Below the pieces are notes generated by a model. That model saw only the letters and a list, made by a program, of their open reading frames with translations. It had not been told where the DNA came from and ran no database searches. A DNA stretch of 35,211 nt from a virus. Its lineage: Duplodnaviria > Heunggongvirae > Uroviricota > Caudoviricetes. Shown piece by piece: positions 5,424 to 18,552 of this stretch. Every line of letters begins with the position of its first letter. Positions within the stretch are counted from its first letter, which is position 1. The DNA lies in the IMG/VR virus record IMGVR_UViG_2703718792_000017, positions 1 to 35,211 of that record. One strand, given 5' to 3'. Both the position numbers and the translations under genes were made by a program.

Positions 5424-6267
5424 TTTGCTGCTCCTCATCATATCGACCCTGCAAGGCCGATTAGTTTCTCCACAAAACAGAGAAGAACACCTGCGGTGGC
5501 TGCCGCCCGGATGGATTGGGTTATGAGCCCGTCGTCCGGTGATGCTCTTCTCTGTTTTGTAAAAAGAGCGGTACCAGCCGGAAGCAAGTGTACAAACTGG
5601 TACCGCCAAAGCAGTGGCTGTTGTGGTGGGGTTGTCACTCAGGCGTATGGTCAACCTGACAATCCGGTGTCCTCAACGGGGAAAGAGTAACCCCGCCATA
5701 CTTACCGCCGCGCCATTTCGCGGATTACCACAACGCTGAGAGCACTTAGCCAGTTACGGCACCACACTTTGTCGCGGCTCCATAAATACCCTCATCGTTG
5801 CACCCTGGTCTCTTCCCAGGCGTCAAACCGGATCGCCACGCTGGTTAGGCGTCTTATCAGCATCATCATTGACTTGCACATTCCGGCTACCTGGTTTGTT
5901 TGCCCGAGCAAGGAGTGGATTGTCCCCTTTAACGTCCCCAGACCGCTAACGACGCATGTGCCATACGCCGTGTTACAATAAAATGTTCGGTATTAGTTAC
6001 CAAAGAGACGATTACTCTTATGGTTGAATGTAATACCCCTGTTGAATATTTTCTTGTGTACTATTTGTTTTTCCTATATAACGAATTGGTTGTTTTGTTT
6101 ACATAATAAGAAGTTTTTTTAAATAAGTTTACATTGTTTTGTCTTGCTATTTTTCAAAATTCAAGAACAATGAATTGTCGCTATCGGTAATTATTCTTTA
6201 TGAAATTTTATAAATAACTCCCTGCTTTTGAGTTTTGTACGCAGTGTTTTTAGTTGTCGAGGACATA

Positions 6268-7669: not shown

Positions 7670-8233
7670 ATGAGGCTAACCGTGGGTAAGCATCACTGGA
7701 AAGTAGAAAAACAGCCTGAGTGGTACGTGAAAGCTGTCAGAAAAACTATCGCGGCGTTGCCGGGTGGTTACGCTGAAGCGGCTGACTGGCTTGATGTAAC
7801 AGAGAATGCTTTATTCAACCGCCTTCGTGCAGATGGTGATCAGATTTTCCCGTTGGGATGGGCAATGATTTTACAGCGCGCGGCTGGCACTCACTACATT
7901 GCGGATGCTGTCGCACAGTCTGCTGGTGGGGTGTTTGTATCGCTTCCTGAAATTGAGGAAGTAGAGAACGCCGATATAAACCAGCGCCTGCTGGAAGTCA
8001 TCGAACAGATCGGGAGTTACTCAAAGCAGATTCGTTCGGCAATCGAAGATGGGGTAGTGGAGCCACATGAGCAGACAGCAATTAATGATGAGTTGTATCT
8101 GTCAATTTCGAAGCTCCAGGAGCATGCAGCACTGGTCTACAAAATCTTTTGCGCTCCAGAAAAGAGTGACGCCCGCGAGTGTGCAGCTCCGGGCGTCGTG
8201 GCGTTTTGTGTCTGTGGAGAAACTAACGCATGA
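7670..8233 (+). CDS. Hypothetical early regulatory protein in the CII position (possible CII/YdaT-like)
   Basis: 187-aa ORF immediately downstream of cro. Start could instead be GTG 7682, which has GAGG upstream. Function is inferred from position only. Confidence 0.5.
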   Translation: MRLTVGKHHWKVEKQPEWYVKAVRKTIAALPGGYAEAADWLDVTENALFNRLRADGDQIFPLGWAMILQRAAGTHYIADAVAQSAGGVFVSLPEIEEVENADINQRLLEVIEQIGSYSKQIRSAIEDGVVEPHEQTAINDELYLSISKLQEHAALVYKIFCAPEKSDARECAAPGVVAFCVCGETNA

Positions 8234-8378
8234 ACAGTTTAACGGCAAATAACCGTTTGTCGCAACAGCTGGTGGTCAGTGCCGCTGAACACCTGTTGTT
8301 ACGGCGTGAATGCAGATTACCAAATCACCTGGCTGTAAGTAACCACAGAGAACTTTACCTGACTGTGGGGGGCGAGTT

Positions 8379-8558
8379 GTGCAGGAACTTAACCGCTGGT
8401 TTCGTGACGGAAGAGGGCTCTATGTTCATGTTATTCGTTGGGAACCAGAAACACAGCGTGTTATCTATCTTCGCAAAGACTACCCGCATGAGTGCTTTAG
8501 TCCTTTGTGGAAATTCAGGCGTGATTTTGTTGAGTGTGATGGACCACCAACACATTGA
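8379..8558 (+). CDS. Possible small protein, 59 aa, GTG start, absent from the ORF track
   Basis: Frame-0 ORF VQELNRWFRDGRGLYVHVIRWEPETQRVIYLRKDYPHECFSPLWKFRRDFVECDGPPTH reads as protein-like, with a G-rich ribosome-binding site upstream; falls below the 60-aa track cut-off. Confidence 0.3.
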   Translation: MQELNRWFRDGRGLYVHVIRWEPETQRVIYLRKDYPHECFSPLWKFRRDFVECDGPPTH

Positions 8559-8644
8559 TTCTGCCATTCCGGGACGTTACACTGTTCAGGCACCTTATAA
8601 AACGGGTGCCGGGCGTGGAAACCCGGAATTCACCAAAGCGCACA

Positions 8645-8668
8645 ACCGCGCTCTTGCGGTTTTTTTGT
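8645..8668 (+). terminator. Putative intrinsic terminator (tR1-like) upstream of rha
   Basis: Short ACCGC-GCTCTT-GCGGT hairpin followed by a T7 run; lies inside the non-coding 5' part of the long ORF 8230..9381. Confidence 0.4.
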
Positions 8669-8835
8669 GTCATGAGCAGCATTACGCCCAAATTATGGTG
8701 GGGCGTGCAGGGCCAACTTCGGTTGGGCCGGGTTCTTTGGTGACCGGTATTTCCACCCCTGTACGTCTCACCACCAATAAGGTCGTGGAAAGCCTTGGTG
8801 GTGAGTTATTAAAAATCACCAAAGAGGCTGCCATC

Positions 8836-9381
8836 ATGGCTACGATCCCAACCCTCACTCAACCTGAAATTGCCATCGTTGATGGTCAGGCTGTTACTTC
8901 ATCCCTAGCTGTTGCCAACTTCTTCTCCAAACGTCATGACGATGTACTGAAAAAGATCCGCACGCTTGAATGCTCAGCATCATTCACTGCCCGCAATTTT
9001 TCGGTGAGTGATTACACTGATTGCACAGGACGCAAACTTCCTTGCTACCAAATCACACGCGACGGTTTTGCGTTTCTTGCTATGGGTTTCACGGGTAAAC
9101 GTGCTGCCCAGTTCAAAGAGGCATATATCAATGCCTTTAACCAGATGGAGAAACAGCTTTCAAAGCCCTCTGTACCGAGCGACGTTGCACATAACGCCAG
9201 CGTTCTCTATTCCTACATTTCATCAATTCATCAGGCCTGGTTGCAGCAGCTTTATCCCATGCTGGAAAAAGCTGAATCACCGCTGGCAGTAAGTCTGTAT
9301 GACCGAATTAACGATGCGGCATTTCTTGCCCGTCTTATTCATTCGTCGCTGAACTCTTCAGAGGTAAGGGGGCGCAAATGA
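8836..9381 (+). CDS. Rha-family phage regulatory protein
   Basis: Internal ATG at 8836 with AAAGAGG upstream; MATIPTLTQPEIAIVDGQAVTSSLAVANFFSKRHDDVLKKIR is typical of the Rha N-terminal domain. Confidence 0.78.
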   Translation: MATIPTLTQPEIAIVDGQAVTSSLAVANFFSKRHDDVLKKIRTLECSASFTARNFSVSDYTDCTGRKLPCYQITRDGFAFLAMGFTGKRAAQFKEAYINAFNQMEKQLSKPSVPSDVAHNASVLYSYISSIHQAWLQQLYPMLEKAESPLAVSLYDRINDAAFLARLIHSSLNSSEVRGRK

Positions 9382-9602: not shown

Positions 9603-10417
9603 GTATGGAGCTGATGGTTAAAGCGATGAAAATTCGAGTGGGTAATCCATTGCGAAAACTGGTTCTGATCAAGCTGGCTGATAATGCCAGCGATCAGGGG
9701 GAGTGCTGGCCCAGCTATCAGCATATTGCTGACCAGTGCGAGATTAGCAAACGTTCTGTGATGAATCATATTGCGGCCCTTTGTGAGTCCGGGCTGGTAA
9801 AAAAAGTCACCCGGAAAGGTGAAAAAGGTAACTCAAGTAATATCTATCTCCTTCATCTGGATGGTGCAGGAGATTCACTAGGGGGTAGTGCAAATAATTC
9901 ACTATCTGGTGCAGCAAATTCACCATGTAGTGCAGGAGTTGCATCAGGGGGTAGTGCAGGAGATTCACCCAGAACCAGTCACTCTTTTGAACCAGTCAAA
10001 GAATCAGTCAATGAACCAATAGCTGTTGGTGCATCAGTTGATGAGTCCGTGCGAGTTCGTTCAAACCGACCGGAATACTCTCCGGAGTTTGAGCAGGCAT
10101 GGCTGGCATATCCCAAACGTGCTGGTGGCAATTCAAAATCTGCAGCCTTCAAAGCCTGGAAAGCCCGTTTGAATGAGGGGGTAAACCCCGAAACCATGCT
10201 GGAAGGTGTGAAACGCTACGCGGGCTGGGTATCTGCGATGGGTAACAGCGGCACACAATTTGTGAAACAGGCTGTCACGTTCTTTGGTCCGGATCGTCAT
10301 TTCGAAGAATCCTGGGAAGTTCCTGCGGTATCTGCAGCCAGACGCGAGGACCCGTACTTCAAAGCCAGTTACGACAACGTGGACTACAGCCAGATCCCGG
10401 CAGGATTCAGGGGGTGA
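9599..10417 (+). CDS. Replication initiator, O-like (N-terminal winged HTH, internal iteron-encoded linker)
   Basis: GGAGG 7 nt upstream of ATG; HTH N-terminus; Gly/Ser/Ala-rich repeat region encoded by the iterons; C-terminal AWLAYPKRAGG...FFGP motif typical of phage replication proteins. Confidence 0.7.
   Translation: MSMELMVKAMKIRVGNPLRKLVLIKLADNASDQGECWPSYQHIADQCEISKRSVMNHIAALCESGLVKKVTRKGEKGNSSNIYLLHLDGAGDSLGGSANNSLSGAANSPCSAGVASGGSAGDSPRTSHSFEPVKESVNEPIAVGASVDESVRVRSNRPEYSPEFEQAWLAYPKRAGGNSKSAAFKAWKARLNEGVNPETMLEGVKRYAGWVSAMGNSGTQFVKQAVTFFGPDRHFEESWEVPAVSAARREDPYFKASYDNVDYSQIPAGFRG
9864..10010. repeat. Putative origin of replication: five about 21-bp iterons plus three GAAyCAGTCA repeats inside the O-like gene
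   Basis: GTGCAnnAnATTCAC-type units starting at 9864, 9888, 9909, 9930 and 9955; GAACCAGTCA at 9972 and 9989, GAATCAGTCA at 10001. Confidence 0.6.
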
Positions 10418-10419
10418 TC

Positions 10420-10908
10420 ATGAGTCTTTTGAATGACGTTCAGAAATTCATTGAAGCCCATCCGGGGTGTACTTCCGCAGACATTGCGGATGCTTTTGCA
10501 GATTACTCACGGCAGCGCGTTCTGCAGTCAGCAAGCAAGTTACGTCAGAGTGGGCGTGTGGCTCACCGTTGTGAAGGAGATACACGCAGACATTTCCCGC
10601 GCCTGACTGATAGAGCGCAGGAGCCGGAACCACAACCAGTTCGTGAAACCAGACCTGTGCGCAATTTCTATGTCGGCACTAACGATCCCCGGGTGATTTT
10701 ATGCCTGACCCGCCAGGCTGAAGAACTGGAGTCGAGGGGGTTATACCGTCGTGCTGCAACGGTGTGGATGGCGGCATTCCGTGAAAGTCACTCCCAGCCA
10801 GAACGAAACAACTTTCTGGCGCGTCGTGAGCTGTGCTTACGGAAAAGCAGCAAGCGCGCTGTATCGGGTGATGAATGGTATCTGTCAGGGAATTACGTGG
10901 GGGCTTAA
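10420..10908 (+). CDS. Hypothetical regulator, possible PerC/ANR-like motif
   Basis: ATG 6 nt after a GGGGG ribosome-binding site; motif AEELESRGLYRRAATVWMAA resembles the PerC/ANR-family signature (from memory, unverified). Confidence 0.5.
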   Translation: MSLLNDVQKFIEAHPGCTSADIADAFADYSRQRVLQSASKLRQSGRVAHRCEGDTRRHFPRLTDRAQEPEPQPVRETRPVRNFYVGTNDPRVILCLTRQAEELESRGLYRRAATVWMAAFRESHSQPERNNFLARRELCLRKSSKRAVSGDEWYLSGNYVGA

Positions 10909-11234
10909 TGACGACGTTAACTCAATGCCAGCAGCAGGTGCTGGATATGCTGATTTCTTACCAGCAAGAACGTGGCTTTCCGCCAACCAATCAGGAGGTG
11001 GCAACCATGCTGGGATACCGTTCGGTGAATGCAGCGGTGGAGCATCTTCGCGCACTGGAGAAAAAAGGCGTCATCACGATAAAGCGTGGCGTGGCCCGGG
11101 GGATAACGCTTCATACCGCGGTGAAGGACGACGACAGCGAGGCGGTCGGGATTATCCGCTCACTGCTTGCCGGTGAGGAAAACGCCAGGCTGCGTGCAAC
11201 CCACTGGTTACATAAGAGGGGTATGAAAGTATGA
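10908..11234 (+). CDS. LexA N-terminal DNA-binding-domain-like protein, no peptidase domain
   Basis: MTTLTQCQQQVLDMLISYQQERGFPPTNQEVATMLGYRSVNAAVEHLRALEKKGVITIKRGVARGI matches the LexA winged-helix DNA-binding domain; TAATG overlap with the upstream gene. Confidence 0.65.
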   Translation: MTTLTQCQQQVLDMLISYQQERGFPPTNQEVATMLGYRSVNAAVEHLRALEKKGVITIKRGVARGITLHTAVKDDDSEAVGIIRSLLAGEENARLRATHWLHKRGMKV

Positions 11235-12438: not shown

Positions 12439-13434
12439 GTGACTGTGAGAGCACTACTGACCCCTGAAATTGCCCCGCGTATGGGGATCGTATTGTTCAG
12501 ACCTGGTTCAGAGCTGATGCCCCTGTTTATGCAGGGGCGTGTCCTGCTGGAGCCTGAGCCGGAACGTTATTCATCTTTCGCCAGCGGTGCCGTTCCGGCG
12601 GCATCACAACCGCTGGCGGATGATCCTGCCGTTCGGGCCGTGTTCCGCAATGAGGCAGTGATCCGTCGTGCTGGTGGCGTGGAATGTCTTGAAAGCTGGT
12701 TACTTCGTGAAAAAGGCTGCCAGTGGCCTCATTCCGACTGGCACAGCGAGAACATGACCACAATGCGACACGCTCCGGGCGCAATCCGTCTGTGCTGGCA
12801 CTGCGATAACCAGCTGCGCGATCAGTTCACGGAACGGCTGGAGTCAATGGCAACGGATAACTGTGCCCGCTGGGTGTTGTCTGTTGTGCGTCGGGATCTC
12901 GGTTTTGATGACAGTCACGTTGTGACAATGCCGGAACTGTGCTGGTGGCTGATTCGTAATGACCTGGCGGATGCCTTACCGGAAAGTGCAGCCCGTAAGG
13001 CACTGAGATTACCAAAGCCTGTTGTGCCGTCTGTCACCCGGGAAAGTGGCCTTGTGCCTTCGGTTCCTGCCACCAGCATCATCCAGGATAAGGCAAAAAA
13101 GGTGCTGGCGCTGAAAGTGGATCCGGAGTCGCCGGACTCTTTTATGTTACGCCCAAAACGTCGCCGCTGGGTTAACGAAAAGTACACGCGTTGGGTTAAG
13201 ACGCAGCCGTGCGCATGTTGTGGAAAACCTGCTGATGATCCCCACCACCTGATAGGTCACGGTCAGGGTGGAATGGGTACAAAAGCGCATGACCTCTTTG
13301 TGTTGCCTTTGTGCAGAAAGCATCACGACGAGCTGCATGCGGATACCGTGGCATTTGAAGAGATGTATGGCTCCCAGCTGGAGCTGATATTTCGTTTTAT
13401 CGATCGTGCGCTGGCAATTGGCGTGCTGGCCTGA
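12439..13434 (+). CDS. DUF968-like protein with C-terminal Cys/His zinc-binding cluster
   Basis: 331 aa; C-terminal CACCGKPADDPHHLIGHGQG...LPLCRKHHDELH is characteristic of the DUF968/YdfU-like proteins of lambdoid nin regions. Start at GTG 12439, or alternatively ATG 12478. Confidence 0.65.
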   Translation: MTVRALLTPEIAPRMGIVLFRPGSELMPLFMQGRVLLEPEPERYSSFASGAVPAASQPLADDPAVRAVFRNEAVIRRAGGVECLESWLLREKGCQWPHSDWHSENMTTMRHAPGAIRLCWHCDNQLRDQFTERLESMATDNCARWVLSVVRRDLGFDDSHVVTMPELCWWLIRNDLADALPESAARKALRLPKPVVPSVTRESGLVPSVPATSIIQDKAKKVLALKVDPESPDSFMLRPKRRRWVNEKYTRWVKTQPCACCGKPADDPHHLIGHGQGGMGTKAHDLFVLPLCRKHHDELHADTVAFEEMYGSQLELIFRFIDRALAIGVLA

Positions 13435-13451
13435 TTTTGTGGAGAAAGTTG

Positions 13452-13793
13452 ATGCGTGATATGTATGAAGTGATGGATCGTTGGGGGGCTTGGGCTGCTT
13501 CAGACAATAGCGGAGTGGACTGGCAACCGGTAGCCGCTGGCTTCAAGGGGCTTTTACCTCATGGCAAAAAGTCCCGGATTCAGTGTGATGATGACGAAGG
13601 CATTATGATAGACAGTTGTGTGGCTCGGTTGCGTAAATATAGGCCTGAAGAATATGAGCTGATAATCGCACATTTTGTTATTGGGGTTTCGCTCCGTACA
13701 ATTGCAAAGAAGCGGAAATGCTCAGATGGTACGATCAGAAAGGAATTGCAAACTGCTTTAGGTTTTATTGATGGTGTTCTGAGAATGGTTTAA
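13452..13793 (+). CDS. Late-gene antitermination protein Q (QuuD/phage-21-like family)
   Basis: MRDMYEVMDRWGAWAA...WQPVAAGFKGLLP...CDDDEGIMIDSCVARL...CSDGTIRKELQTALGFIDGVL matches the Q antiterminator family; ATG at 13452 with GGAGAAAG upstream. Confidence 0.82.
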   Translation: MRDMYEVMDRWGAWAASDNSGVDWQPVAAGFKGLLPHGKKSRIQCDDDEGIMIDSCVARLRKYRPEEYELIIAHFVIGVSLRTIAKKRKCSDGTIRKELQTALGFIDGVLRMV

Positions 13794-13802
13794 GAGTGCT
13801 AA

Positions 13803-13833
13803 CCCAAGCTTGGATTACTTCCCAAGCTTGGAT
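13803..13833. repeat. Two copies of the 13-mer CCCAAGCTTGGAT, each containing the 10-bp palindrome CCAAGCTTGG
   Basis: Copies at 13803-13815 and 13821-13833, directly 3' of Q and overlapping the stop and last codons of the convergent membrane-protein gene. Confidence 0.6.
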
Positions 13834-14354
13834 AATGCAGATTTTTTACGCTTATTTAATGTTTTTCGTGTTTTTATTAACCCTTCAAAATCAATGACTT
13901 CCTTTACTCCTAGTAAAACAGGGATTAATGAGTATAGTGAAAAAACCAAAGCACAAACAACGAATTTACTTATAGTATGAATGTGCTGTTGAACAAAAGA
14001 GGACTCATTGCCAAGGCTAATCAATGCCACAAAAATTATTATCGAAATTTGTAGCGTAAGCATGAATAATGTTGCCCGGCTTTTTTCTTTAATAAGCCTT
14101 GTTAACCTTCTTTGTTCATTGCGAGATAAATCCTCAGCAACGTTTTTTTGGGTTTCAGATAACTTATGAAACAGGGTTGCGCTACTTGCAATTGGTAAGA
14201 TGAGGATAGTTAATACGCCCCAAGGAATGGATGTTAAAATGATGTACTTATTGGCGATAAACCAGGCTGTAGACATAAGCAATACTACAACAACCAAGTG
14301 GAATGCTCTACTTGGTTGTTGGTAGGATATGCACTTAGCAGCCTCTCTATTCAT
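13815..14354 (-). CDS. Integral membrane protein with 4 predicted TM helices, 179 aa; second gene of the antisense moron operon
   Basis: Hydrophobic segments near residues 19-34, 38-61, 94-114 and 128-150; basic C-terminal tail; start ATG overlaps the upstream gene's stop (ATGAATAG); low GC. Confidence 0.7.
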   Translation of the reverse strand: MNREAAKCISYQQPSRAFHLVVVVLLMSTAWFIANKYIILTSIPWGVLTILILPIASSATLFHKLSETQKNVAEDLSRNEQRRLTRLIKEKSRATLFMLTLQISIIIFVALISLGNESSFVQQHIHTISKFVVCALVFSLYSLIPVLLGVKEVIDFEGLIKTRKTLNKRKKSALSKLGK

Positions 14355-15378
14355 CGGTCTCTTCTATTTCTCCATTGTTGATCAGAGCGACCATCCAATC
14401 ATGCATTTGGCCATATAGTTCATGTTCATCAATTAAGCTATTGTAAGTTGTGAGTTTAACAGTATTCCATAAACGAATCTCTTTACCAGTTAAACGCGTC
14501 CCACCAACCATTTCAACAACGACGTCATCATCCGGGTAGTGTCTGGTAGCGTCAACAAGATTTCTTAACATCCTTTCTCCTGAATCAGAAGTTTTCCTCT
14601 TGTATGTGATTTTCAGCGTTACTTCAAGATTAGCGTCATCAAGACAATCTTCAAGCTTGCTACTACGTAAGAAGCTTTCCCATTTCTCTGCTAACATAGC
14701 TTTAAGGAGTTCAGAGGCAGTTCCTGCGGGAACCCAGCCTGGGCTTTTGCTTCCTTGACTAAATTCGTTAACGGCAGTTACAGGGGCACCTATAGAAACT
14801 GATTTTACAGGTCGTTTTAGAACTTCCTCAATGATCTCTTCTTTGGGCTTATCGGAAACTTTTAAGATGTTTTCTGCGCCTAAGTAATTGCTTAAAGAGC
14901 CAAGTAACCATTTCAGATGTGTTTCAAGTTCTCTTGTTGTAAGAGATCTGGATTGCATTACTACGATGCTGTTACCAAATACACCGAAATAAAGAATTGA
15001 ATCTATAAACTCACGCACAACCTGTTCCCTCTCTGTGCGTGCTTCTTCAGCTTCTTCAACAGTCATTTTAGAAAGTTCATCTGATGTTACGGATCTTATT
15101 TCATAAGATTCAGCATCATTTTTAAGCTGTATATAGCGTTGAGAATGGCCTGGTTCGAAGGCAACAAGCTGGCAAAACAGCATTCCCTGGAACTCTTCAT
15201 GTTTATTAATTAATCGGAATAAGTCTTCCTCTCCTGGGTTGACCATTTCCTTGCGAGAATCTGCTTTAGTGTGTTTTTTGAGCAGCTCCATTAGCATCGA
15301 CTGGAGCGTCTTTGACACACCTGACATTGTGACTTCTTTATAGATTATTTTTTTAGTTTTGATTTCACGCTTGCTCAT
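14347..15378 (-). CDS. Soluble protein of unknown function, 343 aa; first gene of the antisense moron operon
   Basis: Start taken as the ATG giving MSKREIK (upstream in-frame starts are TTG or too close to the predicted promoter); no recognised domain; low GC; translationally coupled to the downstream membrane protein. Confidence 0.7.
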   Translation of the reverse strand: MSKREIKTKKIIYKEVTMSGVSKTLQSMLMELLKKHTKADSRKEMVNPGEEDLFRLINKHEEFQGMLFCQLVAFEPGHSQRYIQLKNDAESYEIRSVTSDELSKMTVEEAEEARTEREQVVREFIDSILYFGVFGNSIVVMQSRSLTTRELETHLKWLLGSLSNYLGAENILKVSDKPKEEIIEEVLKRPVKSVSIGAPVTAVNEFSQGSKSPGWVPAGTASELLKAMLAEKWESFLRSSKLEDCLDDANLEVTLKITYKRKTSDSGERMLRNLVDATRHYPDDDVVVEMVGGTRLTGKEIRLWNTVKLTTYNSLIDEHELYGQMHDWMVALINNGEIEETDE

Positions 15379-15411
15379 CTTATTTTTCCATAAATACATA
15401 GGATTAAGCTG

Positions 15412-15440
15412 AATATACAAAAGCGCTAACGCGTACGCAA
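15412..15440 (-). promoter_or_regulatory. Putative sigma70 promoter of the antisense moron operon
   Basis: On the minus strand: -35 TTGCGT, 17-bp spacer, -10 TATATT, about 35 nt upstream of the ATG. Confidence 0.4.
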
Positions 15441-15989: not shown

Positions 15990-16466
15990 ATGCAGGCACT
16001 AAATTCCCAGCGTAAAGCTTTCCTCGATATGGTGGCATGGTCAGAAGGAACGGATAACGGGCGACAACCGACACGTAACCACGGTTATGACGTTATTGTC
16101 GGTGGTGAACTGTTTACTGATTACTCCGATCATCCTCGCAAACTTGTCACGCTAAACCCGAAACTCAAATCAACAGCCGCCGGACGTTACCAGCTTCTTT
16201 CCCGTTGGTGGGATGCCTACCGCAAGCAGCTAGGGCTGAAAGACTTCTCTCCCAGAAGCCAGGACTCCGTGGCATTACAGCAGATTAAAGAGCGTGGCGC
16301 TTTAACGATGATTGATCGCGGTGATATCCGTCAGGCTATCGACCGTTGCAGCAATATCTGGGCGTCGCTACCTGGTGCAGGTTACGGTCAGTATGAACAT
16401 AAAATCGGTGACCTGATTTCCCGGTTTAAAGAGGCTGGTGGGGTGGTAAATGAAGTTGAGCTATAA
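15990..16466 (+). CDS. R: Endolysin, lambda R-type lytic transglycosylase
   Basis: Near-identity over most of its length to lambda R as recalled (NSQRKAFLDMVAWSEGTDNGRQPTRNHGYDVIVGGELFTDYSDHPRKLVTLNPKLKST...). Confidence 0.93.
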   Translation: MQALNSQRKAFLDMVAWSEGTDNGRQPTRNHGYDVIVGGELFTDYSDHPRKLVTLNPKLKSTAAGRYQLLSRWWDAYRKQLGLKDFSPRSQDSVALQQIKERGALTMIDRGDIRQAIDRCSNIWASLPGAGYGQYEHKIGDLISRFKEAGGVVNEVEL

Positions 16467-16842
16467 GCTGGTTATCGCTGCATTCTTCTTTACCGTCATC
16501 GGTTCTTTCATCTGGTCTGCCAACCACTACTACAGCAAATATCAGCGCGAAAAGAAACGTGCTGATGAGACTGTACGAAATGCTGAATCAGCAACAGCCA
16601 TTACCAATAACGTCCTGCAATCACTACAAATCTTCAATACAGTTCTGGAGGCTAACCAGCATGCAAAACAGCAGATCGCACTGGAGTCACAGAGAACCCA
16701 GGAAGATATCAAAATGGTCATTGCGGATGATGACTGTGCTTCACGTCCTGTGCCTGTTGCCGCTGCTGATCGGTTGCGGAAGTACGCGGACAGTTTACGT
16801 GAGCACTCCGGTGGCACCACTGCCAGCCAGCCTGACTTCTGA
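16450..16842 (+). CDS. Rz-like inner-membrane spanin (i-spanin)
   Basis: N-terminal TM segment followed by a coiled-coil-like region; position after the endolysin; WSANHYYSKYQ resembles lambda Rz WAVNHYRDNA. Confidence 0.78.
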   Translation: MKLSYKLVIAAFFFTVIGSFIWSANHYYSKYQREKKRADETVRNAESATAITNNVLQSLQIFNTVLEANQHAKQQIALESQRTQEDIKMVIADDDCASRPVPVAAADRLRKYADSLREHSGGTTASQPDF

Positions 16843-17002
16843 TACTCCTGTACCGTTTATACCCAATCCGCTGACGTATGGTGCCAGTCTGGAGTTGAAT
16901 GTGAGTCTGTTGTCAGCGTTGGGACAATGCAATATTGACAAAGCGGGGATTAGAAAGATAGAGGCGAACCGGTCAGGTAGAAATGAATCATACTCAAAGT
17001 GA
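16727..17002 (+). CDS. Rz1-like outer-membrane lipoprotein spanin (o-spanin), overlapping Rz in the +1 frame
   Basis: MMTVLHVLCLLPLLIGCGS: signal peptide with lipobox LIGC; Pro-rich mature region; starts inside Rz and extends beyond it. Confidence 0.7.
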   Translation: MMTVLHVLCLLPLLIGCGSTRTVYVSTPVAPLPASLTSDTPVPFIPNPLTYGASLELNVSLLSALGQCNIDKAGIRKIEANRSGRNESYSK

Positions 17003-17076
17003 AGCGGAAAAGGTATGTGGCACAAACTGATGCTACCATAATTACAGACTGATGACTTGTGGAATGAAACATGTTG

Positions 17077-17644
17077 AACCTCCTTAATTGATGTTATTCG
17101 AGTGAGGAAGGCATTCTGTCCTTCTATAGTGTCAAGTAAATCAAACGGGAGGCTTGTCCAACGTGTTGGACAAACCTCTCCTATCAGTGAGTTGTATTGA
17201 TCTCGACTCTTCAAAGAATTAATTACTGCGTAGATGAAGAAGGTTTACTACGAATGAAGGCGGCTATTTCGCTGGTTTCTTCATTGGAGTACATATGCCC
17301 CCACGAATCCCGAAAGTCTGCCGCGTTCGCGGCTGCCGCAATACCACTACTGACCCGTGTTAAACCTCCTTAATTGATGTTATTCGAGTGAGGAAGGCAT
17401 TCTGCAGTCCTATACTGTCCAGTAAATCAAACAGGAGGCTTGTTTCACGTGTGAGACAAGCCTCCCCATTAGTGAGTTGTATTGATCTCGACTCTTCAAA
17501 GAATTCATTACTGGGTAGATGAAAATAGTTTCACTATGAATGGAGGAGGCTATGTCGGTGGCTTCTTCATTGGAGTACATATGCCCCCACGAATCCCAAA
17601 AGCCTGCCGTGTTCGCGGCTGCCACTCTACAACCACAGACCCGT
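17077..17644. repeat. Imperfect tandem duplication, 2 x about 284 bp, spanning the promoter and 5' end of the HNH endonuclease gene
   Basis: Copy 1 at about 17077-17360 and copy 2 at about 17361-17644 share about 90% identity by eye (AACCTCCTTAATTGATGTTATTCGAGTGAGGAAGGCATTCTG... CATTGGAGTACATATGCCCCCACGAATCCC...). Confidence 0.75.
17294..17362 (+). pseudogene. Truncated duplicate of the HNH endonuclease 5' end (22 codons, then stop)
   Basis: ATG CCC CCA CGA ATC CCG ... encodes MPPRIPKVCRVRGCRNTTTDPC then stop; it is the copy-1 counterpart of the intact HNH gene start. Confidence 0.5.
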
Positions 17645-17931
17645 CAGGCTATTGCGAAAGCCACAAAGGCGAAGGCTGGAAGCAATACAAGCCGGGCCAG
17701 TCTCGTCATCAGCGCGGTTATGGTTCGAAGTGGGACGGTATCCGCGAGCGCGTCCTGAAGCGTGACAAAGGTTTATGTCAGTCATGTCTGCATGCTGGTG
17801 TGGTGCGTGAGGCGAAAACCGTTGACCACATCGTTCCTAAAGCGCATGGTGGCACTGATGCCGACAGTAATCTGCAGAGTCTGTGCTGGCCCTGCCATAA
17901 GGCGAAGACGGCCCGTGAACGGTTAAAGTGA
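17581..17931 (+). CDS. HNH endonuclease (terminase-associated)
   Basis: Zinc-binding CxxC...CxxC motifs and HNH catalytic region (VDHIVPKAHGGTDADSNLQSLCWPCHKAKT); GGAG 5 nt upstream; the upstream extension in the ORF track is not conserved between the repeat copies. Confidence 0.85.
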   Translation: MPPRIPKACRVRGCHSTTTDPSGYCESHKGEGWKQYKPGQSRHQRGYGSKWDGIRERVLKRDKGLCQSCLHAGVVREAKTVDHIVPKAHGGTDADSNLQSLCWPCHKAKTARERLK

Positions 17932-17946
17932 TAATAATTCTCAACT

Positions 17947-18008
17947 GTATGTGGGGGAGGGGCGGGTCAAATCCCTGTGACCTGACGTCTTCCGGACTGC
18001 CCGCCCCA
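17947..18008. other. GC-rich inverted repeat followed by a T7 run between HNH and TerS: candidate cos/packaging site or terminator
   Basis: GGGGCGGG (17949-17956) pairs with CCCGCCCC (17990-17997); inner GGTCA/TGACC; then ATCGTTTTTTTAT; GGGCGG is reminiscent of the lambda cosN start. Confidence 0.3.
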
Positions 18009-18057
18009 TCGTTTTTTTATACCCGCGAAAAATGAAATTTAACCAGGAGTGCCGCAT

Positions 18058-18552
18058 ATGGCTGGAACGGCGGGGCGTTCCGGGCGTCGCCCCAAGCCAA
18101 CGGCGCGCAAGGCGCTGGCCGGAAACCCCGGCAAGCGAGCCCTGAATAAAGATGAACCTGTTTTTACGCCCATCAAAGGTGTTGAGCCACCGGAGTGGTT
18201 CGCAGAAGAAAATCTCCCTCTCGCCACGATCATGTGGCAACTGACAACCAAAGAACTCTGCGGTCAGGGCCTGTTGTGCGTGACTGACCTCGCGGTGCTT
18301 GAGCGGTGGTGCGTGGCCTATGAGTTCTGGCGACGTGCCGTGAAAAATATTGCCATACAGGGCAACACCATCACCGGTGCAATGGGCGGCAGGGTCAAAA
18401 ATCCGGAGCTGACCGCCAAAAAAGAACAGGAGTCCGAGATGAGCAGCACGGGGGCAATGCTCGGACTCGACCCCAGCAGCCGCCAGCGTCTGATTGGCCT
18501 GGCGGGGCAGAAGAAAGCCACTAACCCGTTTCTGAAAATCATCGAGTCATGA
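18058..18552 (+). CDS. Terminase small subunit (P27 family)
   Basis: [34 protein letters not shown] is typical of P27-family TerS; AGGAG 8 nt upstream of the ATG at 18058. Confidence 0.85.

What the first reader, a model, noticed from the sequence alone, without database searches (positions are those of the whole stretch)
17077..17644. 284-bp tandem duplication duplicating the HNH endonuclease promoter and 5' end, each copy with its own palindromic hairpin
Two roughly 90%-identical tandem copies precede and enter the HNH gene. Copy 1 ends in a 22-codon truncated duplicate of the HNH start (17294-17362). Each copy carries a GC-rich hairpin built on a CACGTG-type core, but with different base-pair partners: TTGTCCAA-CGTG-TTGGACAA at 17154-17173 in copy 1, and GGAGGCTTGT ... 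ACAAGCCTCC at 17434-17465 in copy 2. The element sits between the lysis genes and the packaging module, where packaging signals and late regulatory sites usually lie.
Basis: seen in the sequence. Interest (0 to 1): 0.5.

Follow-up and report, generated by a model that had tools for sequence, protein, structure and literature searches.

The report
Duplicated podovirus-promoter cassette in a prophage
The 286-bp tandem duplication is real but is a rare variant, and the unit it copies carries, on the opposite strand, a hairpin, promoter and ribosome-binding site of the kind used by virulent SP6/K1-5-type phages, aimed at a tiny gene inside a temperate E. coli prophage, so that gene should be switched on only when such a phage infects.

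Summary
The duplication is genuine: 17072-17357 and 17358-17644, period 286, 86% identity. It is a minority allele. Nineteen of 489 module-bearing complete E. coli genomes and 6 of 90 IMG/VR contigs carry it, all with one identical junction. That argues for a single illegitimate recombination event and against an assembly artefact.

Neither strand has a sigma-70-like promoter, and the phage uses Q antitermination.

The unit makes sense on the minus strand. It reads as a terminator-like hairpin, then a 23-bp SP6/K1-5-type phage RNA-polymerase promoter, then an invariant 52-nt leader with AAGGAGGT, then ATG of a 40-codon ORF (17072->16950). Copy 1 matches the promoter at 22/23; the commonest allele elsewhere is 23/23 identical to a K1-5 promoter. 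The copy 1 hairpin is 27/27 identical to a hairpin of Proteus podovirus PmP19.

The ORF's C-terminal half shows 8 synonymous to 1 non-synonymous polymorphisms where it overlaps the Rz1 tail. Copy 2 lost the ATG at the junction and has promoter changes at invariant positions.

The window encodes no matching polymerase. The best inference is a cassette fired by a superinfecting podovirus, possibly for exclusion. The duplication itself is probably neutral. Nothing here has been tested experimentally.

The parts
17072..17357 (.). Copy 1 of the 286-bp unit. It spans the whole divergent intergenic region, from the first base of the small ORF's start codon to the HNH ribosome-binding site, plus HNH codons 1-21.
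   Evidence: TRF and the repeat finder; BLAST of copy 1 against copy 2 gives 86.8%. Its parts are 98-100% identical to different single-copy alleles: the left 100 nt to L183/L107 and unit positions 170-240 to SfIV.
17358..17644 (.). Copy 2 of the unit, continuous with the intact HNH gene. The junction lies at 17357/17358, with 1 nt (T) of microhomology.
   Evidence: The junction is identical in all two-copy loci.
17149..17178 (-). Copy 1 hairpin: a 13-bp stem and 4-nt loop, followed on the minus strand by CCGUUUGAUUUAC. It looks like a Rho-independent terminator and belongs to the PP1/PmP19-type hairpin allele.
   Evidence: Flagged as terminator-like on the minus strand. It is 27/27 identical to Proteus phage PmP19 and 27/28 to Pectobacterium phage PP1, in both cases on the sense strand between genes. 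Covariation favours the minus sense.
17119..17141 (-). Copy 1 SP6/K1-5-type single-subunit RNA-polymerase promoter, ATTTACTTGACACTATAGAAGGA (-17 to +6), with the predicted +1 G at 17124.
   Evidence: It has 1 mismatch to the K1-5 promoter at 12580, at -10 G>T, a variant also present in 2 of K1-5's own 12 sites. It has 0 mismatches to the degenerate SP6/K1-5 consensus, with a chance expectation of 0.00.
17073..17123 (-). Leader with Shine-Dalgarno AAGGAGGT (17085->17078), lying 5 nt before the ATG. It falls inside the most conserved block of the module, which runs from just downstream of the promoter to the start codon.
   Evidence: Alignment of 38 unique alleles; sequence.
16950..17072 (-). 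A 40-codon ORF, MFHSTSHQSVIMVASVCATYLFRFTLSMIHFYLTGSPLSF, antisense to the 3' tail of Rz1. Its stop codon sits at the left boundary of the module.
   Evidence: The ORF is open at 40 codons in all 23 distinct alleles recovered. In the overlap with Rz1 there are 9 polymorphisms: 8 synonymous and 1 non-synonymous in this frame, 0 synonymous and 9 non-synonymous in the Rz1 frame. The N-terminal 22 codons are unconstrained, with pN 0.32 and pS 0.19. Boundary. Database relatives are only sporadic hypothetical proteins.
17434..17465 (-). Copy 2 hairpin with 15-nt arms, of the K1-5-type allele (GTCTCAC..GTGA(A/G)AC).
   Evidence: Similar hairpins lie just before the K1-5 promoters at 6020 and 14590.
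17405..17427 (-). Copy 2 degenerate promoter, ATTTACTGGACAGTATAGGACTG, with 5 mismatches. One is -5 C>G, a position invariant in all 21 K1-5 and SP6 sites.
17356..17371 (-). Copy 2 retains the Shine-Dalgarno sequence (17371->17364), but the start codon reads ACG (17358->17356) because the junction cuts inside the ATG. This copy therefore has no ORF.
   Evidence: In the E. coli XH993-type copy 2 the Shine-Dalgarno sequence has also decayed, from AAGGAGGT to ACGGAGCT.
17295..17363 (+). Truncated duplicate of the HNH start: 21 HNH codons, then Cys, then TAA, with its own GGAG ribosome-binding site.
   Evidence: In other two-copy loci this fragment carries unique non-synonymous changes, MLPRTSK....
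17581..17931 (+). Intact HNH endonuclease gene (116 aa), followed by the probable cos region and then the P27-family TerS and TerL genes.
   Evidence: Pfam and PHROG hits; RefSeq annotation of homologous loci.
16730..17002 (+). Rz1 (o-spanin, LysC-like). Its last 12 or so codons read into the inserted module and differ from those of relatives that lack the module.
   Evidence: PGAP annotation of L001; alignment with L052/L068.

Best explanation
SHOWN. The window is an SfV/SfIV-like lambdoid prophage of E. coli integrated at proA-thrW. Compared with close relatives in which Rz1 stops about 30 nt before the HNH gene, it carries an inserted module of roughly 0.6 kb (about 0.3 kb in single-copy relatives) between Rz1 and HNH. 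The finding is a head-to-tail duplication of the central 286 bp of that module. One illegitimate recombination event joined HNH nucleotide 63 to the first base of the start codon of a leftward 40-codon ORF. The duplication is inherited and rare. Its two copies have since diverged mainly by exchange with other alleles of the module.

On the minus strand each unit carries a cassette of the type found between genes of SP6/K1-5-like podoviruses (Autographiviridae, Molineuxvirinae). It consists of a terminator-like hairpin, a 23-bp phage RNA-polymerase promoter, a 52-nt leader with a strong Shine-Dalgarno sequence, and an ATG. Copy 1 keeps all of these and the ORF. Copy 2 has lost the ATG and has promoter changes at invariant positions. 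Only copy 2 is followed by the intact HNH gene.

INFERRED. Neither strand shows a host-type promoter, and the hairpin would stop leftward host transcription. The small ORF should therefore be silent in the lysogen and during the prophage's own lytic growth. It should be transcribed strongly only when an infecting K1-5/SP6-like phage supplies its polymerase. In most relatives the iss/bor gene lies 350 nt further on in the same orientation and would be transcribed too. The most likely use is a prophage device triggered by superinfection, such as exclusion or abortive infection through the small, moderately hydrophobic protein. The duplication itself is most likely a selectively neutral by-product. 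Each copy stays intact only in the half that adjoins a working gene.
For: Duplication. The junction is the same in 19 complete E. coli genomes and 6 IMG/VR contigs, and no locus has three copies. Mosaic divergence between the copies.

Inserted module: alignment with L052/L068. Only a minority of HNH-bearing relatives have it.

Promoter. K1-5 has 12 sites and SP6 has 9 sites of this 23-mer class, all on the coding strand. Of 99 module units, 57 are 23/23 identical to the K1-5 site at 12580 and 9, including window copy 1, are 22/23. In IMG/VR the exact 21-mer occurs only in K1-5-like contigs of about 44 kb and in this module. Chance expectation in the window is 0.00. An SfIV-type allele instead has the SP6-specific bases at -12 to -10.

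Hairpin. It is 27/27 identical to PmP19 and 27/28 to PP1, on the sense strand. K1-5 has similar hairpins directly before promoters. Pairing is better conserved on the minus strand.

Small ORF. The Shine-Dalgarno sequence and ATG are invariant. It is 40 codons in all alleles. The overlap with Rz1 shows 8 synonymous to 1 non-synonymous polymorphisms, against 0 to 9 for Rz1.

Other points. There is no sigma-70 promoter. No ORF of 800 aa or more exists in the window, so it encodes no cognate polymerase. The ATG is lost from copy 2, and its promoter (all two-copy loci) and Shine-Dalgarno (XH993 type) have decayed. iss/bor lies downstream in the same orientation in 48 of 76 loci, 42 of them with the perfect promoter.
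Against: There are no expression data. Recognition of the promoter by any polymerase is inferred from sequence alone.

About one third of the units carry changes at positions invariant in natural promoters: -5 in 18 units, -3 in 8 and -2 in 7. Many alleles may therefore be dead.

The N-terminal half of the ORF evolves without constraint. The protein has no characterised relative and is only borderline hydrophobic. The 9 polymorphisms are few and not phylogenetically independent.

The leader shows no significant similarity to K1-5 leaders. The right half of the module, the ORF and HNH have no podovirus homologue.

The different hairpin alleles may reflect separate imports from different podoviruses rather than compensatory evolution in place.

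No paper describing such a cassette was found, but the library is incomplete.
Confidence: 0.55

Rival explanations
1. Fossil. The hairpin and promoter are a non-functional scar of an old recombination between a lambdoid phage and an SP6/K1-5-like phage. The small ORF is accidental, and both the module and its duplication are neutral passengers.
For: One third of units have mutations at invariant promoter positions. The N-terminal half of the ORF is unconstrained. No homologue or family exists for the ORF. Only the hairpin and promoter are shared with podoviruses. The duplication and collapse recombinants such as L132 show that the region tolerates rearrangement.
Against: The 47 nt from promoter to ATG are almost invariant, while the flanks differ by 10-15%. 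Fifty-seven of 99 units keep a perfect 23-mer. In the overlap with Rz1, 8 of 9 polymorphisms are synonymous in the ORF frame and all 9 are non-synonymous in Rz1. The ATG-less copy 2 is where the Shine-Dalgarno sequence (in the XH993 type) and the promoter have decayed. Two promoter specificity classes, K1-5-type and SP6-type, and two hairpin classes match different natural podoviruses.
Confidence: 0.3
2. The unit holds the promoter and 5' control region of the HNH gene. The hairpins act on the + strand, as RNA in the late transcript or as DNA sites for late regulation or packaging, and the duplication doubles these signals.
For: The unit lies directly upstream of HNH and includes its ribosome-binding site. 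The + strand of copy 2 folds with z = -4.3. Relatives often have a + strand terminator just before the HNH ribosome-binding site, so the position is a regulatory one.
Against: No sigma-70-like promoter exists. Q antitermination is present. In the commonest allele the + strand hairpin has two A.C mismatches that are G.U pairs on the other strand. The predicted + strand helix H1 is broken in the commonest allele. Copy 1 folds no better than shuffles on the + strand, with z = -1.9. The probable cos site is downstream of HNH, not here. The module is absent from most phages with the same HNH-terminase genes.
Confidence: 0.07
3. In two-copy phages the copy 2 promoter and the copy 1 hairpin delimit a new leftward RNA of about 250 nt. 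It would be antisense to the duplicated HNH leader and start, and could act in trans on the true HNH mRNA, which is 86-90% complementary.
For: The geometry fits: promoter +1 at 17410, hairpin 17178-17149, and the intervening sequence is antisense to the HNH 5' fragment and leader.
Against: The copy 2 promoter has -5 C>G and other changes in every two-copy locus. It would in any case need a podovirus polymerase. T7-type polymerases often read through host-type hairpins (established knowledge). The variant is rare, at 4-7%.
Confidence: 0.04
4. The palindrome is an operator for a dimeric DNA-binding protein, for example a P2 Ogr-type TGT-N12-ACA activator site, and the paired changes reflect altered half-site specificity.
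For: The core reads TGT-N12-ACA and is nearly a perfect palindrome.
Against: The two copies in one phage carry different half-sites. The strand asymmetry of G.U against A.C is not expected for a DNA site. No Ogr/Delta-type regulator was seen among the proteins scanned, and the phage is Q-regulated. The same hairpins occur in podoviruses that lack such regulators.
Confidence: 0.03
5. The duplication is an assembly artefact.
For: None found.
Against: The copies differ at 14% of positions. The identical junction occurs in 19 independent complete genomes and 6 viral contigs.
Confidence: 0.01

Closest known systems
Promoters and hairpin-promoter junctions of SP6/K1-5-like podoviruses (Autographiviridae, Molineuxvirinae: Zindervirus SP6, Vectrevirus K1-5)
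   Same: The 23-bp promoter is the same: 23/23 to K1-5 in the commonest allele, 22/23 in window copy 1, and the SfIV allele carries the SP6-type -12 to -10 bases. The hairpin sits a few nucleotides upstream, as before the K1-5 promoters at 6020 and 14590. The hairpin sequence is identical or nearly so to those of PmP19 and PP1.
   Different: It sits in a temperate lambdoid prophage that encodes no single-subunit RNA polymerase, and it occurs once per genome. It points against the surrounding late operon and drives a 40-codon ORF with no podovirus homologue.
Lambdoid 'morons' in the slot after Rz/Rz1, such as lambda bor and its homologue iss
   Same: It is an extra, leftward-oriented insert at the same genome position, absent from close relatives. 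In 48 of 76 loci it lies immediately upstream of an iss/bor gene in the same orientation.
   Different: From general knowledge, morons have a host-type promoter and are expressed from the prophage. Here no sigma-70-like promoter is detectable, and the promoter belongs to another phage's polymerase.
Elements switched on by another phage's transcription machinery: satellite P4 promoters activated by helper P2 Ogr, PICI activation by helper late regulators, and the engineered phage-promoter-triggered suicide cassette of Lactococcus (Djordjevic et al. 1997). All are recalled from memory and were not checked here.
   Same: The logic is the same: a resident element keeps a gene silent until an incoming phage supplies the specific transcription factor or polymerase.
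   Different: Here the trigger would be a complete foreign RNA polymerase recognising its own promoter. The resident element is a full temperate prophage rather than a satellite. No effector function is known.
Promoter-early stem-loop (PeSL) cassettes of T4-type phages (Arbiol et al. 2010, from memory)
   Same: Both are short stem-loop plus promoter units that flank variable genes and mark recombination joints. The module alleles are mosaic, and the hairpin and promoter alleles match different donor phages.
   Different: PeSLs use the host polymerase and lie within one phage family. This cassette crosses from virulent podoviruses into temperate siphovirus- or myovirus-like prophages.
Ordinary tandem segmental duplication by illegitimate recombination
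   Same: There are two head-to-tail copies, 1 nt of microhomology at the junction, one truncated gene fragment, and later decay of the redundant parts.
   Different: Nothing unusual, except that divergence between the copies comes largely from allelic exchange.

Membership tests
Tandem (segmental) duplication | Two adjacent head-to-tail copies significantly more alike than chance | tested here: met
   TRF score 878, period 286, 86% matches; BLAST of copy 1 against copy 2 gives 86.8% over 287 nt.
Tandem (segmental) duplication | Present in independent assemblies with a defined junction, so not an artefact | tested here: met
   The junction is identical in 19 complete E. coli genomes and 6 IMG/VR contigs.
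SP6/K1-5-type single-subunit RNA-polymerase promoter | Match to the -17 to +6 consensus derived from the phages' own sites | tested here: met
   Copy 1 matches at 22/23 and has 0 mismatches to ATTTASKKGACACTATAGAAG. The commonest allele matches at 23/23. Chance expectation is 0.00.
SP6/K1-5-type single-subunit RNA-polymerase promoter | Invariant positions -9 to -2 and +1 G intact | tested here: inconclusive
   Met for copy 1 and for 66 of 99 units. Not met for copy 2 (-5 C>G) and for 33 of 99 units, which have changes at -5, -3 or -2.
SP6/K1-5-type single-subunit RNA-polymerase promoter | Cognate polymerase encoded by the same genome | tested here: not met
   No ORF of 800 aa or more exists in the window, and SfIV-type genomes of 37-40 kb have none annotated. 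The site therefore works like such a promoter but is not part of a podovirus genome.
SP6/K1-5-type single-subunit RNA-polymerase promoter | Specific initiation by the polymerase at +1 | not testable with these tools
   This needs in vitro transcription or 5'-end mapping in infected lysogens.
Rho-independent terminator (minus strand) | G+C-rich stem-loop followed by a U-rich tract | tested here: inconclusive
   Copy 1 is flagged: 13 pairs, tail CCGTTTGATT. Copy 2 is not flagged by the simple scan, though its tail is UGUUUGAUUU. The U-tract is interrupted and overlaps the promoter.
Rho-independent terminator (minus strand) | Helix maintained by evolution on the transcribed strand | tested here: met
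   Of the cells, 90.5% are paired on the minus strand and 83.3% on the plus strand. Three pairs show changes on both sides. Four to five pairs vary between G.U and G.C only in the minus sense. The minus strand is more stable in 14 of 15 alleles. Caveat: alleles may have been imported rather than evolved in place.
   No sites were found in 16400-18200 on either strand. The best position-weight score was below the shuffle median.
Moron (autonomous insert in a phage late region) | Extra DNA absent from otherwise near-identical relatives | tested here: met
   L052 and L068 are almost identical through Rz1 up to window position ~16951. Their Rz1 tail then differs, and Rz1 stops about 30 nt before the HNH ATG.
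Moron (autonomous insert in a phage late region) | Own host-type promoter and expression from the repressed prophage | tested here: not met
   No sigma-70-like promoter is present. Expression was not testable.
Protein-coding small gene (40-codon ORF) | Strong ribosome-binding site, conserved length and purifying selection | tested here: inconclusive
   AAGGAGGT-N5-ATG is invariant and the ORF is 40 codons in all alleles. The C-terminal half shows 8 synonymous to 1 non-synonymous changes, but in the N-terminal half pN exceeds pS.
Abortive-infection or superinfection-exclusion system | Reduces the yield of a specific infecting phage | not testable with these tools
   Only the trigger-like architecture is seen. 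The PADLOC library was not searched with the 40-aa ORF, and general protein searches gave no named relative.

The most novel reading that the evidence does not exclude
A temperate E. coli/Shigella prophage carries a natural 'pET-like' trap: a host-polymerase terminator, then the promoter of a virulent SP6/K1-5-type phage, then a strong ribosome-binding site and a small effector gene. In most relatives iss/bor lies downstream as well. The invading phage's own RNA polymerase would switch on a prophage-encoded exclusion or abortive-infection function. The different promoter alleles (K1-5-type, SP6-type) and hairpin alleles would track different podoviruses. This would be a way of sensing phage infection by promoter specificity of the invader's polymerase, which I could not find described.
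Probability: 0.3. Interest if true: 0.85.

Novelty: new variant of a known kind. Interest (0 to 1): 0.62.

Why it matters
The duplication on its own is an ordinary, rare structural variant. What it copies is not ordinary. About 9% of complete E. coli genomes (489 of 5426) carry, inside a lambdoid prophage, a promoter that matches the promoters of virulent K1-5/SP6-type phages base for base. It is preceded by those phages' characteristic hairpin and followed by an invariant leader and a constrained small ORF.

If the cassette is active, it is a simple and specific sensor of infection by one phage group. K1-5/K1E-like phages are candidates for therapy against K1 E. coli, so the cassette could affect their host range. 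It would also add a new trigger principle to phage-defence biology.

If it is a fossil, it still documents DNA flow from virulent podoviruses into temperate phages. Either outcome can be tested directly with existing phages, commercial SP6 polymerase and simple lysogen mutants.

Tried and rejected
(1) Known RNA families. Rfam at gathering and at E<=10 gave nothing real in 16950-18100, only chance snoRNA and miRNA hits.

(2) Plus-strand leader structure. Copy 2 folds with z = -4.3 but copy 1 only with z = -1.9. The alifold helices other than the main hairpin are broken in the commonest allele.

(3) An N-terminal extension of HNH or an upstream ORF on the + strand. Indels between alleles break the frame.

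(4) A P2 Ogr-type TGT-N12-ACA activator site. The phage is Q-regulated, and the two copies have different half-sites.

(5) Sigma-70 promoters on either strand, including a weak TTTACT-16-CAGAAT candidate. This turned out to be part of the podovirus promoter.

(6) A minus-strand sRNA ending at the hairpin. No promoter lies upstream of it.

(7) The hairpin as terminator of a leftward gene to its right. No such gene exists, even in the L111-type context.

(8) The minus-strand two-gene moron at 13815-15420 as the target of leftward transcription. It is present in only 1 of 51 module loci.

(9) Homology of the leader to the K1-5 capsid-gene leader. The score of 25 against a shuffle 95% level of 23 is not significant.

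(10) Podovirus homologues of HNH, the small ORF, Rz/Rz1 or the right half of the module. None were found.

(11) A near-identical single-copy sibling of the window, to date the event. The best relatives are only 94-97% identical in the flanks.

(12) Literature. No description of this intergenic region or of podovirus promoters in prophages was found.
Full report
OBSERVATION. The tandem duplication is real. Tandem Repeats Finder reports one array at 17072-17644, with period 286, 2.0 copies and 86% matches. The repeat finder gives three collinear blocks spaced 285-286 bp. Copy 1 is 17072-17357 and copy 2 is 17358-17644.

Copy 1 ends in a 22-codon ORF (17295-17363) that repeats the first 21 codons of the HNH gene. 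The intact HNH gene is 17581-17931. Only small corrections are needed: 286 rather than 284 bp, 86-87% rather than about 90% identity, and a start at 17072.

CONTEXT. The window starts with E. coli proA and tRNA-Thr(CGU) at 100% identity to E. coli, followed by an integrase. The element is a lambdoid prophage of the SfV/SfIV type. It has a Q antiterminator (13437-13793, Pfam 1e-45), then holin, endolysin, Rz and Rz1, then HNH, P27-family TerS and TerL. In such phages the late genes are read from one Q-modified transcript; this is established knowledge for lambdoid phages.

HOW COMMON, AND ONE ORIGIN. A junction-spanning 80-nt probe finds the start of the module in 489 of 5426 complete E. coli genomes. 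Only 19 of these cover the junction. Among 90 IMG/VR contigs holding the module, 6 have two copies and none has three.

Every two-copy locus has the same junction...GACCCGTG|TT(G/A)AA(G/C)CTCC, with one base of microhomology. This indicates a single illegitimate recombination event that has since been inherited and moved by recombination. It is not an assembly artefact and not a recurrent event.

The 14% difference between the window's copies is largely allelic exchange. Different 48-nt stretches of copy 1 are 98-100% identical to different single-copy alleles, L183/L107 on the left and SfIV on the right. Most of copy 2 is 100% identical to L107/L183.

THE UNIT IS PART OF AN INSERTED MODULE. 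Only a minority of phages with this HNH-terminase block have the sequence upstream of HNH. Others have unrelated DNA, often a + strand terminator abutting the HNH ribosome-binding site. Relatives L052 and L068 are almost identical to the window through Rz1 up to about 16951. Their Rz1 tail then differs, and Rz1 stops some 30 nt before the HNH ATG. The module therefore extends from about 16952 to about 28 nt before the HNH start, which in this window lies beyond the second copy. It always follows this Rz1 end, even where an iss/bor moron has been inserted further left.

NO HNH PROMOTER. The consensus scan finds no sigma-70-like site on either strand in 16400-18200. My own weight-matrix scan gives a best score of 8.1 against a shuffle median of 9.1. 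Rfam finds nothing.

THE HAIRPIN BELONGS TO THE MINUS STRAND. Across 12 distinct hairpin alleles, the 14-pair helix forms standard pairs in 90.5% of cells as minus-strand RNA and in 83.3% as plus-strand RNA. Pairs 4-29 and 5-28 are G.U or G.C in 12/12 alleles in the minus sense but mismatched in 8-9/12 in the plus sense. Three pairs change on both sides. In 14 of 15 alleles the minus-sense fold is more stable by 2.5-11 kcal/mol; the window's copy 2 is the single exception. On the minus strand the stem is followed by (C)UGUUUGAUUUAC, and copy 1 is flagged as terminator-like.

THE KEY RESULT. A sensitive search with the module found a 27/27 match of the copy 1 hairpin in the virulent Proteus phage PmP19. 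There it lies on the sense strand between two genes. Searching the minus-strand segment with a loose threshold returned 148 phage records, 581 places in all. The non-module records listed are SP6/K1-5-like podoviruses of about 44 kb (Escherichia, Klebsiella, Vectrevirus, Salmonella, Pectobacterium), with several places per genome.

Directly after the hairpin the minus strand reads ATTTACTTGACACTATAGAAGGA (17141->17119). K1-5 has 12 sites of this class and SP6 has 9. All are on the coding strand. The K1-5 consensus is ATTTACTGGACACTATAGAAG and the SP6 consensus is ATTTAGGTGACACTATAGAAG. The SP6 sequence is the one used as the SP6 promoter in well over a hundred papers in the library.

Window copy 1 differs from the K1-5 site at 12580 at one position, -10 G>T, which also varies among K1-5's own sites. 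Among 99 module units, 57 are identical to that K1-5 site over all 23 bases. Eight SfIV-type units carry the SP6-specific GGT at -12 to -10. The degenerate consensus matches copy 1 with no mismatch, with 0.00 matches expected by chance. In IMG/VR the exact 21-mer occurs only at the promoter positions of K1-5-like phages and in this prophage module.

K1-5 itself has similar hairpins (GTCTCAC..GTGAGAC) immediately before its promoters at 6020 and 14590. That is the hairpin type of the window's copy 2. PP1 and PmP19 have the copy 1 type.

DOWNSTREAM OF THE PROMOTER. The predicted +1 is G 17124 on the minus strand. A 52-nt leader follows, ending in AAGGAGGT-N5-ATG. The block from just after the promoter to the ATG is the most conserved stretch of the whole module in 38 unique alleles, while the flanks vary.

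The ATG opens a 40-codon ORF (17072->16950) that is open and 40 codons long in all 23 distinct alleles recovered. Its stop codon lies at the left edge of the module. Where it overlaps the Rz1 tail, 9 polymorphic changes are 8 synonymous and 1 non-synonymous in the ORF frame, but 0 synonymous and 9 non-synonymous for Rz1. Seven of them fall on the ORF's third codon positions. The N-terminal 22 codons are not constrained, with pN 0.32 and pS 0.19. The protein is moderately hydrophobic and has only sporadic hypothetical relatives.

The window has no ORF of 800 aa or more, so it encodes no single-subunit polymerase. In 48 of 76 module loci with enough flank, an iss/bor gene lies 350 nt further on in the same orientation, and 42 of these have the perfect promoter. 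The window itself lacks iss.

WHAT THE DUPLICATION DID. The left breakpoint lies inside the ORF's start codon. Copy 2 therefore has the hairpin, promoter, leader and Shine-Dalgarno sequence, but ACG in place of ATG. Its promoter carries -5 C>G, a position invariant in all 21 natural sites, plus changes at +2, +4, +5 and +6. All other two-copy loci also have -5 G in copy 2, and in the E. coli XH993 type the Shine-Dalgarno sequence has decayed as well. Conversely, the HNH fragment of copy 1 is a dead end and in other loci carries unique non-synonymous changes. Each copy thus stays intact only in the half that adjoins a working gene. This is what a neutral duplication of a divergent control region should look like. 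It also supports, indirectly, the idea that the leftward signals are under selection when an ORF follows them.

MECHANISM (INFERRED). A host-polymerase terminator, then a promoter recognised only by a foreign phage polymerase, then a strong ribosome-binding site: this layout keeps a gene silent until an SP6/K1-5-like phage infects, and then expresses it strongly. T7-type polymerases are highly active and specific for their own promoters (established knowledge). The simplest purpose is a prophage function directed against the superinfecting phage, carried out by the small protein. Nothing shows what that protein does.

The main rival is that the cassette is a fossil of recombination with a podovirus. 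One third of units have changes at invariant promoter positions, half of the ORF is unconstrained, and only the hairpin and promoter are shared with podoviruses. I put the functional reading at about 0.3-0.4 and the fossil at about 0.3. The structural description is much more secure, at roughly 0.9.

COMPARISON WITH KNOWN SYSTEMS. The promoter and hairpin work like those of Molineuxvirinae, but the element is not part of such a genome because it lacks the polymerase. The position and orientation are those of lambdoid morons such as bor/iss, but the defining host-type promoter is missing. The logic resembles satellites switched on by helper regulators and an engineered phage-triggered suicide cassette; both comparisons are from memory. 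I found no paper describing podovirus promoters in temperate prophages, though the library is incomplete.

VERDICT. The duplication is a rare, probably neutral variant. The duplicated unit is an unexpected and testable feature.

Noticed in passing
L002 1077-1900 and 48 of 76 module-bearing IMG/VR loci: In most relatives an iss/bor lipoprotein gene lies 350 nt downstream of the cassette leader in the same leftward orientation, and 42 of these 48 have the perfect K1-5-type promoter. A fragment of the Rz1 3' end is retained between iss and the cassette. The window itself lacks iss.
   Followed up: partly
window 16952-17002: The last 12 or so codons of Rz1 are encoded by the inserted module and differ from those of module-less relatives. 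All 9 polymorphisms there change the Rz1 protein, so this tail seems unconstrained.
   Followed up: yes
window 17553-17580, with L111, L018, L025 and many loci: The 28 nt before the HNH ATG (CGGTGGCTTCTTCATTGGAGTACAT) resemble the right arm and T-tract of + strand intrinsic terminators that directly precede the HNH ribosome-binding site in many relatives. The right joint of the module seems to lie inside an ancestral terminator.
   Followed up: partly
window 13815-15420 (minus strand): A two-gene leftward moron (179 aa and 357 aa; PHROGs 16807 and 3482, unknown function) sits between Q and the holin. It was found in only 1 of 51 related loci.
   Followed up: partly
window 8590-8778: Rfam finds isrK (67.9 bits) and C4 antisense RNA (83.6 bits) side by side, inside or next to the ORF at 8230-9381. 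This is a P1/P7-type c4-like antisense immunity element in a lambdoid prophage.
   Followed up: no
window 10414-11234 and 12439-13434: The nin-type region encodes a PerC-like activator, a 119-aa protein consisting mainly of a LexA-type DNA-binding domain, and a DUF968/HNHc_6 protein. The last is a second HNH-type nuclease in the prophage.
   Followed up: no
K1-5 (L213) about 5990-6020, 8390-8420 and 14555-14580; PP1 (L212) 401-428; PmP19 (L210) 1501-1527: Closely similar short hairpins (GTCTCAC-N4-GTGAGAC or GTCCAAC-N2-GTTGGAC) recur between genes of Molineuxvirinae phages of Escherichia, Klebsiella, Proteus and Pectobacterium, often just before phage promoters. In K1-5 and PP1 they are flanked by TATACTCAAGG...CCTTTATGA. 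Their role (terminator or RNase III site) was not established here.
   Followed up: partly
window 17935-18050: A G+C-rich stretch (GTGGGGGAGGGGCGGGTCAAATCCC...CCCGCCCCATCG followed by a T-run) lies between HNH and TerS. It is the probable cos region, since the SfIV record ends within the homologous stretch.
   Followed up: no
L132 (IMG/VR 2695420643_000016) and L136-type loci: Some single-copy alleles combine a copy-1-type Shine-Dalgarno/ATG region with a copy-2-type (-5 G) promoter and hairpin. This is what a collapse of the duplication by recombination between its copies would produce.
   Followed up: partly
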